From Pocillopora damicornis (Eukaryota): a stretch of 64,000 nt of DNA. Of this stretch, positions 1 to 6,000 are shown piece by piece (within the stretch, counting starts at the first letter, position 1; every line of letters begins with the position of its first letter). The position numbers are program-made. Location of the stretch: contig NW_020846063.1 in assembly GCF_003704095.1 (NCBI RefSeq), forward strand, positions 620,001 to 684,000, given 5' to 3'.

Positions 1-3000
1 AAGCGTTACCGTTATCTTATCGTGTGACACAGTTAGCCGTGATTTCTCGGAAGCTTGTAAACTCTCGAAACCAAGCTAAACTTTACTATCCCGACCCTTG
101 TTATAACGAACTGGCAGCCTGTCCAGTGAGCGCATTGAACATGAATAATAAAATTAAACGAATCAGCTGTTGAATTTGAGAACAATAGGCCATTGATTGA
201 ATCACTGTCACGTGACAAGGTGGACTTTGCTAGAAAAATTCTTCAATCAATGTTGACGTCCCAGTTGGTGTTTCTAGGAAATCACTGATACCTCACAGAC
301 GACAAACATGCAGAAATCCCAAACGCGGGCCATTGTTTTGCCTTTTTGGACGTTTGCTGTCCTTGTAACGGCACTAGTTGGCCTATTCCCAGCGTTACTG
401 TATTGTATTGGTGAGATTGTAGTGCTGAAATCACGCTTTGAGCAACAACAGCAGACAATCGAGTACTTAGAAAACGTCACAGCGCATATTCAACGCAGAA
501 CTGTGGAAAACGATTTCTCGAGCGGCGAAACGCAAGAGGCTTACCAGAGTTCCAGGCTTACCATGAAATGGAAGGTTTGACGTTTTTACGTTTCCTTGGT
601 TGACAATTTTTATTTTGAACGACCTCGAGGTCTTAGAAACCGGTCGCTCAATTATACACACAATTGTCAAAGCTTGGCAGCTACTTAGGAACGCAAAGCA
701 CAATTACTCATTCTTTATCGGGTTTACACAAGACCTTAACGTTAATTGAAATCGTTTCTACACTAACTCAGAGTTAGTCCACGTAGGTATCTACAAGAAA
801 ACCAAGCTAGATATTTATTTGTGGAAAACTAAACGTCATTTCCGCATTGTACATTGTTTAGGAAAGCGAAATACGACTGATGAGACAGAGGAGGGACACT
901 GGTTCACGAAAAAATGATTCATGCCGCTGCAGGCGAGGTAGATATATCACTGAGATTTTCATCCAGTTTATACAAAACTACAAAATATAACAAAAAGAAT
1001 GGGACTAGGCGCAAGTCAATATCGGCTTGGGGTGTTATTTAGCAGCCTTAGATAGAGGGCTAGTGCATCGAGTTTATAAAATCCCCTCTCCCCCCCTTTC
1101 CCTGCCCAACACCCTTCCCCTTTTGTAAAGAGTCTGGGGCGCGAGAAAGTAGCAATGTTCATTCTGAATGAGAAGACAAGCAGCCAAATAAGCGGTCCAA
1201 AAAGCCCAGGGTTCGTGATAAAATGATAAAAAATTGGCCATACATATTTTTGCTTAAAACACTGTTTCTCGGCAATGAGGCATCCTAGAGGCACACACAA
1301 ATTATGCTTTTCCCTGGGAACAGACATTTCNNNNNNNNNNNNNNNNNNNNNNNNNNNNNNNNNNNNCCCCCCCCCCCAACGACCTTCGGCTCCAGTTCAA
1401 TTGCATTCCTAGCAGTTTATTCCTTACTCTAGCGTTTCACTTTTTCCGTCTAAATACACAGCCTACAAGAAGAGATTTGTAAAATGAGGCACTTCTTCAA
1501 TTGTTCGCATAATGATTATTTTGCCTTTACTCGAGCTGTTGGCTGAAGTCCATGAAAAGCTTATTTCTCGGAAGTCCTCTCTTACATCAAAAATCGCTTT
1601 TTGAACGAGGTGTGAAATTCAATCCTGCGACAGCCCTAAAATAAGAAAGCTGTTCGTTTTGCAATTAATTCTAAAAGAAAGGAAAAAAAAAGGTTTTACT
1701 TGCGACCTAATTTGCTTTTTATAACTTTCTCTGGATGATTCAAATTTTGTTGTTATGATATACAGTTACATAACTTGAGGTCAGGTATTGGGTCACTTTG
1801 GATAGTGGTTTATTTTGAAACTATATATATCGAAACAAAGCTTTATTAGCTTACCAAGGATATTGTTCCTGTAAGACAATACAGTTCAGATGTGGTCTGG
1901 CACGTTCTTGACCTTGGAGTCTCAATTCTAAACAATGTCTAGAAGCAATATCAATTTGCCTTGCAAAATTAAAATTCTGTTTTGAAAGCAGCTCTTTTTG
2001 ATAAAGACTATGGTTTAAGCTTCATGTACCAAAGAAAGTGAGGTCCTATAAAATGAGTCTTAAACGAATTTTAATGTCAGTTTATGCATGTTTTGGTACT
2101 TCACGTAATGACTTAAACGTCACGTACTGTAAGGGATAACTTGTCACGTGAAACAAAAAATACGGAGTGACCAGACACGTATATTCACGTTACACAAGTC
2201 TTTCTGTAAAAAAAAAGTTTTTCTATTTTAGGTCGTAAAGGAGAGCGGGGACCAAAAGGACAGAAAGGTGATGTTAAATGAAGGGGGGAAGTTGATGTTA
2301 TAATTTTGAAAAGTCATCCTTAATCGTACGAATTTCATATCTATTTTTCCATTCACACAAAAGCTTAAACGTGTCTTAAAGCAGTTTTGTTAAACACGAT
2401 TTAAATTTGTTTTCTTCATAGAAGCAGCTTAAACCGATGTTTGTCGACTTCAAATTTAGCACATTAAAGTACAAGTTAGTGACTACTTGAAGCCGATGGA
2501 AAATTCAGTTTTTCAGCTCTCTGTATCTTATTTTCATTCAATTAATCCGGATTTAACTAAACATGTCTTACTAGAGTGAATGGGGTATATGAAACTTAAG
2601 ACTGTTGTCAGAGCCAGCAAAGCAAGTGCTTAAATTATTCGTATATTTGAGCGCGAGTCTTTTTAATGTTTACAAATAGACACGCGCGGACATACGCAAA
2701 GAGGACATTTATCCTCGCGGTATCTTTTCCTATGTGTGCGCCTTTGTGATTCGCTTGCTGTTTAAGCGCATGACTAGGATGTAATTAGGAGTAGCCTCTA
2801 GGTCAAGATCCTGTGTAGAAACTTGTTATATTCAATTCAACAGAGGCTCTAATGTGTGTAAATAACAATCTGCTTTTTTTCTGTGCAGGATCGACCGGAC
2901 GAAAGGGAAGGGCAGGTAAAAAAACTTGTTTTTCAAAACTAGAAAGAAAAAGTACTTGTATCTCTTTTAAATACTGCATCCAGTTACGATTGTGGCGGGA

Positions 3001-6000
3001 AAAATATAATTTGTTGAGTAACCTACAATCTTACGAAATGTTGTCATGGTCATGAAAGATCAACACCACCATGATCGTCATCATCACCAGCATCATTATC
3101 ATTATCGTTAGCGGATCCCTTTAATCAACAACTTGAGTAGAACGTGTATACATATCATACAGGCGCGGTTACCGAACCGAAAGCACTTTTCTTATTCGTT
3201 TCGTTTTTTTTTTTTCCTCAGGACCGAAAGGTGACACGGGAGCACTCGGCAACACTGGACCGCCGGGAAGGGATGGACAGAAAGGGAAAATGGGTACGTG
3301 CGTTGTGTTTACTTTAATTAGTAATGGCAGCTCACCAAGACTGCCGCTAGGAATCTTGTCTAAAGCTTCAGATGGTCTCATACCACCGTTCCTTACTTTA
3401 AAATACTAGTCTTGATCGATCCCCTCAAGATAAGATATTTTCTCTTCTTAAGACATTCAAAAACAATGGACGAATAACCTCTTACCTAGGTCTCTATTGC
3501 TTCTCTTTCAGGTGAGCGAGGAGAGCCTGGGCCTCCAGGTAGTGCAGAAGTCTCTACTGGGCACCTACACAAAATATATGATAGCTCTGATTAAAATTTT
3601 TTCTTGGAAATGCACCATTCATCAGTTCCACTTACCATTTCATATAAAAAAGCGGCTGTCTCGTCAAGTGCGTAATTCAATCTGAATAGGAATGACACAC
3701 ATGGCACATTTTGTGGACTAAAACGAAAAAACCGGAGCAAAATTTGAGAAAACGAGCCACATAAAGGCCAAGTTTTTTAACTTTTCCTGTTTATCTTTTC
3801 TTATATTACTGCACTGAGTGTTTGCACACCAGTCATAAGTGTAATCAAATGGTTTTTATTGACAATTTCTTTGCCTTTACGTTTAAAACAGGACAACCAG
3901 GCTCAATGTTTCGGGTGAGTGTTTCTTACAATATATTGATGATGATATGCCTCTTTTTTCGCCCATTGGTTTTGTACTAAATACTTAAACACTAACTCTC
4001 TGCGGGTGATTTTTCTTAATTTTAAATTTTAAGTCTTGATGATACCACTAAGATTATCCTGCTTGAATTCATTTCCTCAAACTTTTGTTTGTATCTCAAT
4101 TCAGTCCACAGACTCGGCTCACATCGTTGGTTATGGTGAGCACATAAATCCCCCAAGAGGTACAACAAAATGTTAGTGTTAATCTCTTTTCTATTTTCTG
4201 GGTTTTTGTGAACGTGCACTATATAATAGCCTCGAAGTTACGCATAATTATTTTTAAGGCAAAGTCGAGTTGACTTACAACGTCAGGCGATCTGATCATT
4301 GCGAACTGTGAACAACCTTCGTTTTTAGCGCGCAAAGGAAAATCCTTATCATCGATCCTTCAAAGGCGATGTTATTAGAGAGATGACATTAGGAATAGGT
4401 ACTCGTTGAAATCATCAATTTCCCTGAGTCATGGTGAAATTATGATGATTATTCATACTTGTCTTTTAACTTTTACAAATTCAAATTCTTTCCTAGACGC
4501 ACATGGGGTGAGAGAGGAGCGGGGGGGGGGNNNNNNNNNNGAAGGTTCCAGCGATAGCATTTAACCTCCTATCTCCTCCGTACCCCTAGCAACGCCCATT
4601 GTACCAATTTTGAAATTAACACCCTCTTCTCTCTGCTCTCCTCAGTCCACCGCATCACGAACTGGAAACTAGGCCACATAACCGGTAGTATCAAATTCGT
4701 CAGCAACAGCTTCCTTGTGATTGGCACAACTGGCTACTACTTCGTGTACAGCCAACTCTTCTATTATGCAGGGGACACTCTCCTTATGGGCCATTACACA
4801 TACATCAACGAGGAACCGGTCATGCGCAGTCTGAGCAGTGTCGTCAGCGAGGAGAGAAAGTACAACACGAATTATCACGGCGCAGTGTTCATGCTCAGAA
4901 GCGGTGACAAAATATCTGTGCGCATCCCGTTCACAAAGTCCTACTTCATGCATAAGGAAACCAGTTATTTTGGTGCTTTCCTTATCAGCCCCGTGTTAAA
5001 CACGACCAGTTTTGTTCGAACGACTAACACAACTCAGGATTTCCCATAGAGCGGTTTTCAATCGAGTGTTGAAAGTTAAGTAATGCGGAAATGAAATGTT
5101 TTTTTTTTACTTCGCACCGTGATTGATTTGAAAATCTTGTTCCACTCTCTCGACCAATGAGATGAAAAACAAAAACAAATCGTTGACTTGGCATTCACCT
5201 TTTCCCCAGCTCGCCTCAAGCAATTAAGGTGGGGGAGGGGGGGATTGGAAGATTTTGGGGATCACATGCTTTTCAGGGAGAGGAGATAGGTGTGAAAAAC
5301 ATTACAGAGCTAAGGGAGGATCAGGTAAATTTATCGTACAAATACCAAAATCTTCCGAACCCCCACCCCTCAGGGGATAAATAAAGACATGTCCCTAAGC
5401 TTGTTTTTACATCAGATTTTCATTTCCTCTACTACTACTTTGCTTTGATTGGCTGTTGTCATTATTTTGGTTTGGTTTTAGCGACACTCGATCGAAATGC
5501 GCAATGACCTTGAAGTACAAGTTATACGTTCATTTTGTAGACTTAAATGTTTGAAACTTTATCTAGTAACAAGTTTATCAGCAGAGTTTCTATTACTTGA
5601 ATAACGTCACATACAGAAAGTCAAAAGTGTTAGGAAAGGGAAAAGTTCTTTTTCATAGTGCACTGTTCAACTCAAATATAAACAAATCTGCGTTTGCGAA
5701 TACTTCTCGCAGGCGGACACCTGCTATATGCATACGACGATTATTTTACATTTTTATTTGCTCTTTGTGACGTGCAAAATTCCCTACCAAGTGAAGGAGA
5801 CGACAACATATTACTTCGGAAAGTTGGAAAAAAATGGAAAGAATAAGCCAGTTAGAATGGTGTAGATTTAAAAAAAATTCTAATGAGATTCTTGAAAACG
5901 TACTCCAAAGTTTCAAGATTCCAAAAAAAGCGCAATAGTTCCTTCAAGTTCCCAAACTTAAGAAAAAAAAAGTTTCGGTGGTCTTTGACAACTGAATTTC

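What the first reader, a model, noticed from the sequence alone, without database searches (positions are those of the whole stretch)
308..5049. Complete ectodysplasin architecture with a collagen stalk built from 9n-bp micro-exons
Seen: TM, RQRR furin site, CRC, then 20 perfect Gly-X-Y triplets, then the TNF domain. The collagen is carried by symmetric phase-1 exons of 36, 27, 72 and 27 bp plus a 23-bp exit exon, none of which is evident from the ORF track. Established: EDA is the vertebrate TNF ligand with this TM-furin-collagen-THD layout and signals in ectodermal appendage development. Inference: an EDA-type shed, multimerising ligand exists in an apparently non-bilaterian animal. Any of the four 9n exons can be skipped without breaking frame or the Gly register, so splicing could tune stalk length.
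[Added by the scan's program, not by the reader: the finding's places include an assembly gap (unread letters, written N; its length is only estimated) at 1331 to 1366, 4531 to 4540. Whether the letters on both sides are continuous or in frame is not known: test that first.]
Basis: partly seen in the sequence, partly recalled or inferred. Interest (0 to 1): 0.68.

Follow-up and report, generated by a model that had tools for sequence, protein, structure and literature searches.

The report
Coral ectodysplasin-like TNF ligand gene
This is a real, already annotated coral gene for a membrane-anchored, collagen-stalked TNF-family signal protein like vertebrate ectodysplasin, so the finding is correct but not new.

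Summary
Window 308-5049 (+) carries a nine-exon gene, with 8 of 8 introns GT-AG. Every exon translation is an exact, ordered substring of RefSeq XP_027048800.1 from Pocillopora damicornis. The P. verrucosa orthologue is already named "ectodysplasin-A isoform X1".

The layout is: membrane anchor, RQRR, CRC, 20 unbroken Gly-X-Y triplets, then a TNF domain. The triplets sit on phase-1 exons of 36, 27, 72 and 27 bp plus a 23-bp exit exon. Both N gaps lie inside introns, and public proteins run straight across both junctions.

Among solved structures the TNF domain is closest to EDA. Its intron phases match those of human EDA, as read from published variant names. Collagen-stalked EDA-like ligands in Hydra, Acropora and Nematostella are already published.

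Micro-exon skipping is arithmetically possible. It is absent from 16 of 17 full-length pocilloporid proteins; one sea-anemone isoform drops the counterpart of the first 27-bp exon.

Amphioxus and bird EDA isoforms vary at the same alignment slot.

The finding is correct and already known. Interest is low to moderate.

The parts
277..307 (+). 5' untranslated leader directly upstream of the start codon. An AG at 275-276 is used as an acceptor by two public models that fuse an upstream gene. The transcript may therefore start outside the window.
   Evidence: P0012 and P0025 read EITDTSQTTN in frame before the Met. The TAG at 274-276 closes the frame if the leader is unspliced.
308..574 (+). Exon 1 (267 bp, phase 0 to 0). 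It holds the start codon, an 8-residue N-terminal tail, the membrane anchor (aa 8-35, nt 329-412), a Gln-rich stalk and one N-X-T sequon.
   Evidence: It carries the P. damicornis-type QSSRLTMKWK ending.
862..937 (+). Exon 2 (76 bp, phase 0 to 1). It holds the RQRR furin-type motif (883-894) and C-R-C-R-R (922-936) directly before the collagen. RCRR itself also fits R-X-[KR]-R.
1331..1366 (.). Assembly gap inside intron 2 (938-2231), followed by a C10 run.
   Evidence: Not filled.
2232..2267 (+). Collagen micro-exon C1 (36 bp, phase 1-1, 4 triplets).
2889..2915 (+). Collagen micro-exon C2 (27 bp, phase 1-1, 3 triplets). Its Actinia counterpart is missing from isoform X3.
3222..3293 (+). Collagen micro-exon C3 (72 bp, phase 1-1, 8 triplets).
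   Evidence: Pfam Collagen E=0.0012 on this exon alone, which is below the curated cut-off.
3512..3538 (+). Collagen micro-exon C4 (27 bp, phase 1-1, 3 triplets).
3892..3914 (+). Exit exon C5 (23 bp, phase 1 to 0). It holds the last 2 triplets plus F-R.
4105..4171 (+). First TNF-domain exon (SAHIVG strand). It has two donors: 4159|GTACAA (55 bp, next codon Val) and 4171|GTTAGT (67 bp, adds G-T-T-K, next codon Phe). Both leave phase 1.
   Evidence: Both forms exist as public proteins.
4531..4540 (.). Assembly gap inside the last intron (4172-4645), preceded by a G10 run.
   Evidence: Not filled.
4646..5049 (+). Last exon (404 bp, phase 1). It holds the bulk of the TNF homology domain, an 18-residue tail with two N-T-T sequons, and the stop codon at 5047-5049.
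   Evidence: Pfam TNF PF00229, E=7.2e-13, 49 bits against a cut-off of 23. Also.
5380..5385 (+). AATAAA, a possible polyadenylation signal 331 nt after the stop codon. Not verified.

Best explanation
The region is the Pocillopora damicornis-type copy of a cnidarian ectodysplasin-like gene. It encodes a type II membrane protein of the TNF ligand superfamily.

**Protein layout.** A 28-residue anchor is followed by a short stalk, a dibasic RQRR motif and a Cys-X-Cys pair. Then come 60 residues of uninterrupted Gly-X-Y and a C-terminal TNF homology domain.

**Inferred mechanism.** The TNF domain trimerises. The three Gly-X-Y chains zip into a triple helix about 17 nm long. The Cys-X-Cys pair staples the chains or links trimers together. 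A furin-type convertase cuts at RQRR and releases a soluble, multimeric ligand for an EDAR-like TNF receptor.

**What is shown and what is inferred.** Shown: the gene structure, the domains, identity to the public protein, the similarity ranking and the isoforms. Inferred: cleavage, disulfides, multimerisation and the receptor.

**Splicing.** The four 9n micro-exons appear to be constitutive. The variable step is a choice between two donors 12 nt apart at the end of the first TNF-domain exon. This adds or removes four residues 6 positions before the invariant Trp.

**Family position.** The gene is one of several collagen-stalked paralogues in corals. It is best called an EDA-like co-orthologue rather than a proven one-to-one orthologue.
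For: **Identity and domains**
- Exon translations are exact substrings of XP_027048800.1.
- The last exon is 100% identical to P. verrucosa 'ectodysplasin-A isoform X1'.
- Pfam finds Collagen plus TNF on P0014, and TNF on the last exon alone.

**Similarity to EDA**
- With the single exon against solved structures, EDA-A2 scores 39.7 bits and the next single-domain hit, lymphotoxin-alpha, 31.1.
- With a 44-sequence profile: EDA-A2 93.8, EDA-A1 86.7, TRAIL 71.6, FasL 56.5, Eiger 56.1, BAFF 52 and APRIL 50 bits.
- The exhaustive search gave 140 representatives at E<=1e-3. I looked up 20 of them. All 8 vertebrate ones are ectodysplasin-A or EDA-like, and the rest are cnidarian, hemichordate, amphioxus or echinoderm proteins.
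- 23 of the 59 hits of at least 230 aa also carry a collagen run.

**Gene structure shared with human EDA**
- Published variant names give human exons c.503-526 (24 bp, phase 1-1), c.527-706 (180 bp, phase 1-1), c.707-741 (35 bp, phase 1 to 0) and c.742-793 (52 bp, phase 0 to 1). The last base is the first base of codon Asp265 (listing; passages).
- The coral has four phase 1-1 collagen exons, then 23 bp (1 to 0), then 55 or 67 bp (0 to 1).

**Transcript evidence**
- Full-length proteins sit on contigs too short to be genomic: P0019, 329 aa on 2,684 nt, and P0027, 315 aa on 1,259 nt. These proteins include every micro-exon.

**Conserved motifs**
- A canonical R-X-[KR]-R lies 11-16 residues before the Cys pair in 6 of 8 orthologues.
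- Two Cys lie within 12 residues before the collagen in 16 of 16 cnidarian collagen-TNF proteins.

**Donor choice**
- Of 17 full-length pocilloporid proteins, 9 are the long form and 8 the short form.
- Both forms occur in P. verrucosa, P. damicornis, Stylophora pistillata, one unnamed cluster and Actinia tenebrosa.

**Literature**
- HyTNF has the same layout as EDA, and 2 of 5 Acropora and 2 of 4 Nematostella TNFs have collagen (passages of bioRxiv 10.1101/2019.12.13.875351).
- Nematostella EDA is expressed (passages of PMC13367198).
Against: - My neighbour-joining tree (37 TNF domains, 132 columns, 100 bootstraps) does not resolve the link between the cnidarian group and deuterostome EDA; support is 7 or less. 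Its only outgroups are teleost TNFSF14 and one fragmentary TNF-like protein.
- Corals carry at least three or four paralogous collagen-TNF genes, so one-to-one orthology is unproven.
- The vertebrate A1/A2 two-residue switch has no counterpart here. That site lies inside the coral's last exon.
- Vertebrate EDA has no Cys before the collagen (0 Cys in 5 of 5) and has an interrupted collagen. The coral has C-X-C and no interruption.
- The furin-type motif is not canonical in 2 of 8 orthologues.
- Cleavage, disulfides, oligomeric state and receptor were not tested.
- No structure model was obtained.
- The 20 representatives I named were picked by me (long, many with collagen), not at random.
Confidence: 0.85

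Rival explanations
1. One reading: the four 9n micro-exons are cassette exons, and regulated skipping tunes the length of the collagen stalk in this coral.
For: - All four exons are phase 1-1. Each ends in G and is followed by the last two bases of a Gly codon, so any of them can be dropped without breaking frame or register.
- Actinia tenebrosa isoform X3 lacks 9 residues that align exactly with exon C2.
- Stylophora model PFX34027.1 (P0025) lacks the 12 residues of C1.
- Stalk length differs among orthologues: 18, 19 or 20 triplets.
Against: - 16 of 17 full-length Pocillopora and Stylophora proteins keep all 20 triplets. This includes those on transcript-length contigs.
- P0025 is an older model fused to an upstream gene, and its support is unknown.
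- 8 of the 23 members of the Pocillopora cluster were not listed, so rare forms may have been missed.
- Isoforms of a Montipora paralogue differ just upstream of the collagen, not within it.
Confidence: 0.15
2. Convergence: a TNF domain unrelated to EDA captured a collagen stalk independently in cnidarians.
For: - The tree does not resolve a cnidarian-plus-EDA clade.
- The stalks differ. The coral has C-X-C and an uninterrupted collagen on four micro-exons. Human EDA has one 180-bp exon, and the vertebrate proteins compared have no Cys and an interrupted collagen.
Against: - EDA outscores every other solved single-domain TNF ligand by 15 bits or more with the profile.
- The same order of exon phases flanks the collagen-to-TNF-domain junction in human EDA.
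- Collagen plus TNF-domain proteins also occur in hemichordates and amphioxus.
- The collagen-less coral paralogues nest inside the collagen-bearing clade (bootstrap 95 and 98), so loss rather than gain explains them.
Confidence: 0.08
3. It is a strict one-to-one orthologue of vertebrate EDA, paired with a single EDAR orthologue.
For: The NCBI name, the best similarity to EDA and the shared phase pattern. EDAR-like receptors are reported in cnidarians.
Against: - There are several paralogous collagen-TNF genes per coral. Three Stylophora proteins lie on one 1.93-Mb scaffold.
- The deep nodes of the tree are unresolved.
Confidence: 0.2
4. It is a C1q-related factor, CTRP, collagen chain or scavenger receptor, as other RefSeq and GenBank names for the same cluster say.
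For: Names include C1q-related factor-like, collagen alpha-1(X)-like, macrophage scavenger receptor-like and collagen alpha-4(IV).
Against: Pfam finds TNF (PF00229), and no C1q domain at E<=1, on the last exon and on P0014. The solved-structure hits to the C-terminal domain are all TNF ligands.
Confidence: 0.01

Closest known systems
Vertebrate ectodysplasin-A (EDA-A1/A2)
   Same: - Type II membrane anchor, furin-type site, collagen stalk of about 19-20 triplets and a C-terminal TNF domain.
- EDA is the best sequence match among solved single-domain TNF ligands.
- The exon-phase order is the same: phase 1-1 collagen, a short 1-to-0 exit exon, then a roughly 52-67 bp 0-to-1 exon ending 6-9 residues before the invariant Trp.
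- Isoform variation occurs at that same intron slot in a bird EDA.
   Different: - The collagen is split over four 9n micro-exons. In human EDA it is one 180-bp exon.
- The coral collagen has no interruption.
- A C-X-C pair precedes the collagen, where vertebrates have a Lys-rich tract with no Cys.
- There is no A1/A2 two-residue switch.
- The coral protein has an extra glycosylatable C-terminal tail.
- Identity to P0014 is about 25-27% over whole-protein alignment A8.
Cnidarian collagen-TNF ligands already described: Hydra HyTNF, 2 of 5 Acropora TNFs and 2 of 4 Nematostella TNFs (Steichele and Boettger; Stein and Litman)
   Same: The same membrane anchor-collagen-TNF domain layout and the same EDA-like assignment (passages read). 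Nematostella XP_001638169 and Actinia EDA-like group with the window gene at bootstrap 98.
   Different: In the passages I read, those papers do not describe exon structure, the Cys pair or the donor choice.
RefSeq models XP_027048800.1 and RMX41999.1 (P. damicornis) and XP_058958888.2 and XP_058958965.2 (P. verrucosa)
   Same: XP_027048800.1 contains every exon translation of the window's long form, and RMX41999.1 contains those of the short form.
   Different: P. verrucosa differs at the end of exon 1 (QSLMKWK against QSSRLTMKWK). The names given to these models are inconsistent.
C1q/TNF-related proteins and adiponectin
   Same: A collagen stalk carries a trimeric jelly-roll head. Cysteines N-terminal of the collagen build higher multimers (recalled knowledge, not tested here).
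   Different: The head domain here is a TNF domain, not C1q. The protein has a membrane anchor instead of a signal peptide.
Drosophila Eiger
   Same: An invertebrate type II TNF ligand.
   Different: Eiger scores lower than EDA with the cnidarian profile: 56.1 against 87-94 bits. That Eiger has no collagen stalk is recalled, not tested.

Membership tests
TNF ligand superfamily | C-terminal TNF homology domain (Pfam PF00229) | tested here: met
   Last exon alone: E=7.2e-13, 49 bits against a cut-off of 23. P0014: 46.6 bits.
TNF ligand superfamily | Type II topology: N-terminal membrane anchor and no signal peptide cleavage | tested here: met
   An uncharged stretch covers aa 8-35, with mean hydropathy 2.4 over the best 19 residues. 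The TNF domain is C-terminal. Orientation itself is inferred.
TNF ligand superfamily | Homotrimer | not testable with these tools
   No structure prediction could be run.
Ectodysplasin-A | Anchor, then furin-type site, then collagen repeats, then TNF domain, in that order | tested here: met
Ectodysplasin-A | TNF domain closer to EDA than to any other TNF ligand | tested here: inconclusive
   Scores favour EDA: 93.8 and 86.7 bits against 71.6 for TRAIL. All 8 vertebrate hits that I looked up are EDA. The tree leaves the node unresolved and lacks TRAIL, BAFF and APRIL.
Ectodysplasin-A | Shared intron positions and phases | tested here: met
   Human exon bounds come from variant names in papers. 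No human sequence was used. The position relative to the Trp was judged from bird EDA in alignment A8.
Ectodysplasin-A | A1/A2 two-residue splice switch after the Y-S-Q motif | tested here: not met
   That site lies inside the single last exon, and no isoform differs there.
Ectodysplasin-A | Cleavage by furin and binding to EDAR or XEDAR-type receptors | not testable with these tools
   Only the RQRR motif and its partial conservation (6 of 8 orthologues) are seen.
C1q/TNF-related proteins | Globular C1q domain (PF00386) and a signal peptide | tested here: not met
   No C1q match at E<=1.

The most novel reading that the evidence does not exclude
The intron that ends the first TNF-domain exon may be an ancient alternative-splicing site of EDA-type ligands, older than the vertebrate A1/A2 switch.

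**Same slot in four lineages.** The variable segment falls in one alignment slot, 6-7 residues before the invariant Trp:
- Corals and a sea anemone use two donors 12 nt apart, giving a difference of 4 residues.
- An amphioxus EDA-like gene has isoforms differing by 11 residues.
- A bird EDA has isoforms differing by 3 residues.

In human EDA, an exon ends in phase 1 at Asp265, which fits that slot.

**Possible meaning.** If the variation is homologous, two ligand forms differing in the loop between the first two strands were already made in the cnidarian-bilaterian ancestor. They could select among EDAR-like receptors. That this loop contacts receptors in other TNF ligands is recalled knowledge, not tested here.
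Probability: 0.3. Interest if true: 0.55.

Novelty: already known. Interest (0 to 1): 0.3.

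Why it matters
The finding confirms that the ectodysplasin-type ligand, with its collagen stalk and dibasic site, predates bilaterians. That was already known from Hydra, Acropora and Nematostella.

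Two points are added here.
- The exon-phase pattern around the collagen-to-TNF-domain junction is the same in a coral and in human EDA. This argues for common descent of the whole architecture rather than repeated collagen capture.
- Cnidarian genes make two ligand forms by donor choice at an intron where chordate EDA-like genes also vary.

Both points are cheap to test with existing RNA-seq and genome data. They would help in reading coral TNF signalling, which is often discussed in stress and bleaching studies.

Tried and rejected
1. **Extra TNF-domain exons.** From the raw sequence I first proposed two further exons, 4259-4281 and 4329-4398. No public protein contains them, and the last intron runs 4172-4645. 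Rejected.
2. **Second TNF-like gene.** An ORF at 14767-15153 ends in F-G-A-F-L-V-S, and an anchor-like ORF lies at 11173-11505. There was no Pfam TNF match at E<=10, no relevant solved-structure hit, and only a 14-residue BLASTP match. Left open.
3. **Structure prediction.** The job for P0014 with alignment A7 failed.
4. **Protein Atlas.** Closed for new sequences.
5. **Homology search with the wrong length band.** searched 710-2025 aa and found nothing. One search reached only cnidarian proteins and teleost TNFSF14-like proteins, because the word index does not reach vertebrate EDA.
6. **Tree.** It could not resolve the deep nodes, and no TRAIL, BAFF or APRIL sequences were available as stored proteins.
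7. **Echinoderm isoforms.** The Asterias and Diadema pairs differ in the stalk, not at the donor-choice slot. That is 2 of 2 against a universal pattern.
8. **Repeats and RNA families.** Rfam found nothing in the window. The repeat searches found nothing that bears on the gene.
9. **Papers.**
   - Pantalacci et al. 2008 (Mol Biol Evol) is not held.
   - A DOI I recalled wrongly returned an unrelated paper.
   - 'EDA-A5' returned 0 papers.
   - The last search was too broad and listed nothing on ectodysplasin.
   - No paper in the library combines EDA-A1/A2 splicing with Cnidaria: 0 of the 15 listed.
   - The one paper with both Pocillopora and ectodysplasin is an unrelated review.

Full report
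**What is there**

The window has about 38% G+C and a eukaryotic exon-intron layout. It is coral sequence, not human. Between 308 and 5049 on the plus strand I read nine exons. All 8 introns begin GT and end AG.

| Exon | Coordinates | Length (bp) | Phase in / out | Content |
|---|---|---|---|---|
| 1 | 308-574 | 267 | 0 / 0 | start codon, membrane anchor |
| 2 | 862-937 | 76 | 0 / 1 | RQRR, C-R-C-R-R |
| C1 | 2232-2267 | 36 | 1 / 1 | 4 triplets |
| C2 | 2889-2915 | 27 | 1 / 1 | 3 triplets |
| C3 | 3222-3293 | 72 | 1 / 1 | 8 triplets |
| C4 | 3512-3538 | 27 | 1 / 1 | 3 triplets |
| C5 | 3892-3914 | 23 | 1 / 0 | 2 triplets plus F-R |
| TNF-1 | 4105-4159 or 4105-4171 | 55 or 67 | 0 / 1 | first TNF-domain strand |
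| Last | 4646-5049 | 404 | 1 / 0 | rest of TNF domain, stop |

Exon 1 carries an uncharged stretch at aa 8-35. Each collagen exon ends in the first base of a Gly codon. The triplets add up to 20 without interruption.

**More than chance**

Runs of four or more Gly-X-Y triplets occur four times in the 64-kb window, all in this gene. In 200 shuffles the mean was 0.06 and the maximum 2. The nine other runs in the window have exactly three triplets.

**The gaps**

Gap 1331-1366 lies in intron 2 (938-2231). Gap 4531-4540 lies in the last intron (4172-4645). Both abut a homopolymer run of ten C or ten G. The flanking exons agree in phase.

Each exon was translated and searched on its own and then tested as a substring of public proteins. 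All exon translations occur exactly and in order in P0014 (XP_027048800.1, Pocillopora damicornis, 332 aa). The six residues between them are the split codons. The short form matches P0013 (RMX41999.1, 328 aa). So nothing coding is missing at either gap relative to the public record. Full-length comparisons below used public proteins as they stand.

**Independent support for the micro-exons**

The last exon is 100% identical to P. verrucosa 'ectodysplasin-A isoform X1' (P0002). In that search, 10 proteins had E<=1e-3 among 194 candidates.

The two 90% clusters for Pocillopora and Stylophora hold 23 members (15 listed) and 11 members (11 listed). Some members sit on contigs too short to hold the 4.7-kb gene, for example 329 aa on 2,684 nt and 315 aa on 1,259 nt. 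These are spliced transcripts, and they contain all five collagen exons.

Of 17 full-length proteins, 16 keep all 20 triplets. One lacks the 12 residues of the 36-bp exon. That one is Stylophora PFX34027.1 (P0025), an older model fused to an upstream gene. One fragment (P0030) reads through the first collagen donor into the intron, so it is unspliced.

**What family**

Pfam gives TNF (PF00229) on the last exon, at 49 bits against a cut-off of 23. On P0014 it gives Collagen plus TNF. There is no C1q match.

Against solved structures, the best single-domain match of the last exon is EDA-A2 at 39.7 bits. Lymphotoxin-alpha follows at 31.1 and TRAIL at 29.9. The top row of that search is a three-domain fusion construct, so its summed score is inflated.

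A profile of 44 relatives widens the margin:

| Solved TNF ligand | Bits |
|---|---|
| EDA-A2 | 93.8 |
| EDA-A1 | 86.7 |
| TRAIL | 71.6 |
| FasL | 56.5 |
| Eiger | 56.1 |
| BAFF | 52 |
| APRIL | 50 |

An exhaustive HMMER search gave 140 cluster representatives at E<=1e-3. Of the 59 that are at least 230 aa long, 23 carry a collagen run. I looked up 20 that I chose myself. All 8 vertebrate ones are ectodysplasin-A or EDA-like, from birds, a gecko, a shark and teleosts. The other 12 are two Branchiostoma, two Glandiceps, one Saccoglossus, one Asterias, one Diadema, three coral paralogues, one Nematostella and one unnamed protein.

**Tree**

I built a neighbour-joining tree of 37 TNF domains (132 columns, 100 bootstraps).
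- The coral orthologues group at bootstrap 100.
- The collagen-less coral paralogues join them at 95, and the sea-anemone EDA-like proteins at 98. The paralogues therefore lost the stalk.
- The link between the cnidarian group and deuterostome EDA has support of 7 or less. The only outgroups were teleost TNFSF14 and one fragment.

Corals also have further collagen-TNF paralogues, three of them on one Stylophora scaffold. I therefore call the gene EDA-like and leave strict orthology open.

**Gene structure compared with human EDA**

I used no human sequence, only variant names in papers.
- c.502+1G appears in the listing (PMC7495278).
- c.526+1G>A, c.707-1G>A, c.527-3066_793+1017del, c.793+1G>C and c.793G>T p.Asp265Tyr, the last marked 'splice site modification', appear in passages of PMC7010634.
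- c.742-2A>G appears in passages of PMC10724520.

These names imply the following human exons, set against the coral:

| Step | Human EDA | Coral gene |
|---|---|---|
| Micro-exon before the collagen | 24 bp, phase 1-1 | none; exon 2 is 76 bp, phase 0 to 1 |
| Collagen | 180 bp, phase 1-1 | 36, 27, 72 and 27 bp, each phase 1-1 |
| Exit exon | 35 bp, phase 1 to 0 | 23 bp, phase 1 to 0 |
| First TNF-domain exon | 52 bp, phase 0 to 1 | 55 or 67 bp, phase 0 to 1 |

From the collagen onward the order of phases is the same. The difference is that the coral's collagen is cut into four 9n micro-exons.

Phase-1 exons that split Gly codons are, from recall, usual in non-fibrillar collagen-like genes. 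The micro-exon design in itself is therefore not unusual.

The first TNF-domain exon has two donors 12 nt apart: GAG|GTACAA at 4159 and AAT|GTTAGT at 4171. They give proteins with V or with G-T-T-K-F just before H-R-I-T-N-W.

Of the 17 pocilloporid proteins, 9 are the long form and 8 the short form. Both forms occur in P. verrucosa, P. damicornis, Stylophora, one unnamed cluster and Actinia tenebrosa (G-S-E-K-F against V). In Porites the two forms are seen in different species.

In alignment A8:
- The 11-residue difference between two amphioxus isoforms of LOC144923575 falls in the same slot.
- The 3-residue difference between pigeon EDA isoforms B and C falls there too.
- That slot lies 6-7 residues before the invariant Trp.
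- The human exon ending in codon Asp265 fits it.
- The vertebrate A1/A2 switch lies elsewhere, after Y-S-Q, inside the coral's last exon.

Against a general rule, the isoform pairs of Asterias and Diadema differ in the stalk instead. Gap placement by the aligner may also exaggerate the coincidence. No eukaryotic genome DNA could be fetched to check the other exon maps.

**Stalk details**

- A canonical R-X-[KR]-R lies 11-16 residues before the Cys pair in 6 of 8 orthologues.
- Two Cys lie within 12 residues of the collagen start in 16 of 16 cnidarian collagen-TNF proteins.
- 5 of 5 vertebrate EDAs have no Cys there.
- R-C-R-R at the collagen edge is itself a second dibasic motif.
- Orthologue stalks have 18-20 triplets. 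Actinia has 14, with one break.
- Actinia isoform X3 lacks G-K-R-R-K-R-G-R-K, which aligns exactly with the coral's first 27-bp exon. This is the only isoform-level support for cassette use of a 9n exon.

**Mechanism**

Shown: the gene model, the domains, the isoforms and the conservation.

Inferred from the EDA and TNF literature (passages, plus recall): the protein trimerises through the TNF domain, forms a collagen triple helix of about 17 nm, is stapled by disulfides, is shed at RQRR, and signals through EDAR-like receptors.

**Prior knowledge**

- Steichele and Boettger describe HyTNF with the EDA layout and note collagen domains in 2 of 5 Acropora and 2 of 4 Nematostella TNFs (bioRxiv 10.1101/2019.12.13.875351, passages).
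- Stein and Litman report that Nematostella EDA is expressed (PMC13367198, passages).
- My searches found no paper on cnidarian EDA splicing. One search was uninformative.
- Pantalacci et al. 2008 is not held, and supplements were closed. Either could already describe the three-residue vertebrate isoform.

**Left unchecked**

- Structure and fold comparison.
- The Atlas look-up.
- Exon maps of other species.
- RNA-seq junction counts.
- The closed metagenome and viral collections were not needed.

**Verdict**

The EDA-type reading is sound at the level of 'EDA-like'. The gene and the architecture are already public. Micro-exon skipping is unproven in this coral. The donor choice and the shared phase pattern are modest additions.

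Noticed in passing
window 11173-11505 (+) and 14767-15153 (+): A possible second ligand-like gene downstream. One ORF has an anchor-like hydrophobic stretch followed by a coiled-coil-like segment. A 129-aa ORF ends in N-F-G-A-F-L-V-S, like the last strand of the TNF domain. There was no Pfam TNF match at E<=10, no relevant solved-structure hit, and only a 14-residue BLASTP match to P0009.
   Followed up: partly
window 36207-37279 (-) and 39425-41079 (-): Two neighbouring gene copies on the minus strand have PAN/apple plus EGF exons. A discoidin (F5/8 type C) exon matched Pfam only at 36207-36575; the corresponding ORF of the second copy (39873-40430) had no Pfam match.
   Followed up: partly
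window 47595-48155 (-); 31150-31830 (-); 24531-24884 (-): Exons with a pyridine nucleotide-disulphide oxidoreductase domain (E=2.3e-9), a FYVE zinc finger (E=1.9e-6) and a weak sulfatase match below the cut-off (E=0.0015).
   Followed up: no
window 53627-54622 (+) and 55655-57388 (+): Two long Ser/Thr/Pro-rich ORFs (331 and 577 aa) with no Pfam match at E<=0.01.
   Followed up: partly
window 5234-5369: An inverted repeat with 25-nt arms (84% complementary, 86 nt apart) lies about 190 nt downstream of the stop codon and contains G-rich and C-rich runs. Both gaps in the gene also abut runs of ten G or ten C.
   Followed up: no
window 270-307, with public models P0012 and P0025: Two public gene models (P. 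meandrina CAH3149695.1 and Stylophora PFX34027.1) splice an upstream gene into the AG at 275-276 and read the leader in frame. The upstream part has no Pfam match. They are probably fused models.
   Followed up: partly
related proteins P0001 (Montipora foliosa) and P0040 (Porites evermanni): These models fuse a second TNF-ligand paralogue directly upstream of the orthologue of the window gene. This suggests a tandem pair in those corals. The Porites paralogue has a short collagen of 12 triplets, and the Montipora one has none.
   Followed up: partly
related proteins P0102, P0182 and P0185 (Branchiostoma LOC144923575): The amphioxus isoforms also carry three different versions of the C-terminal half of the TNF domain after Y-S-Q-V. 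They look like mutually exclusive terminal exons.
   Followed up: no
window 21800-21899, 29696-29795, 32440-32539, 33102-33134 and 62429-62565: Five further assembly gaps outside the finding.
   Followed up: no
window 3059-3106: An imperfect 21-nt tandem repeat (2.3 copies) of ATC/ACC-rich sequence lies inside the intron between C2 and C3.
   Followed up: no
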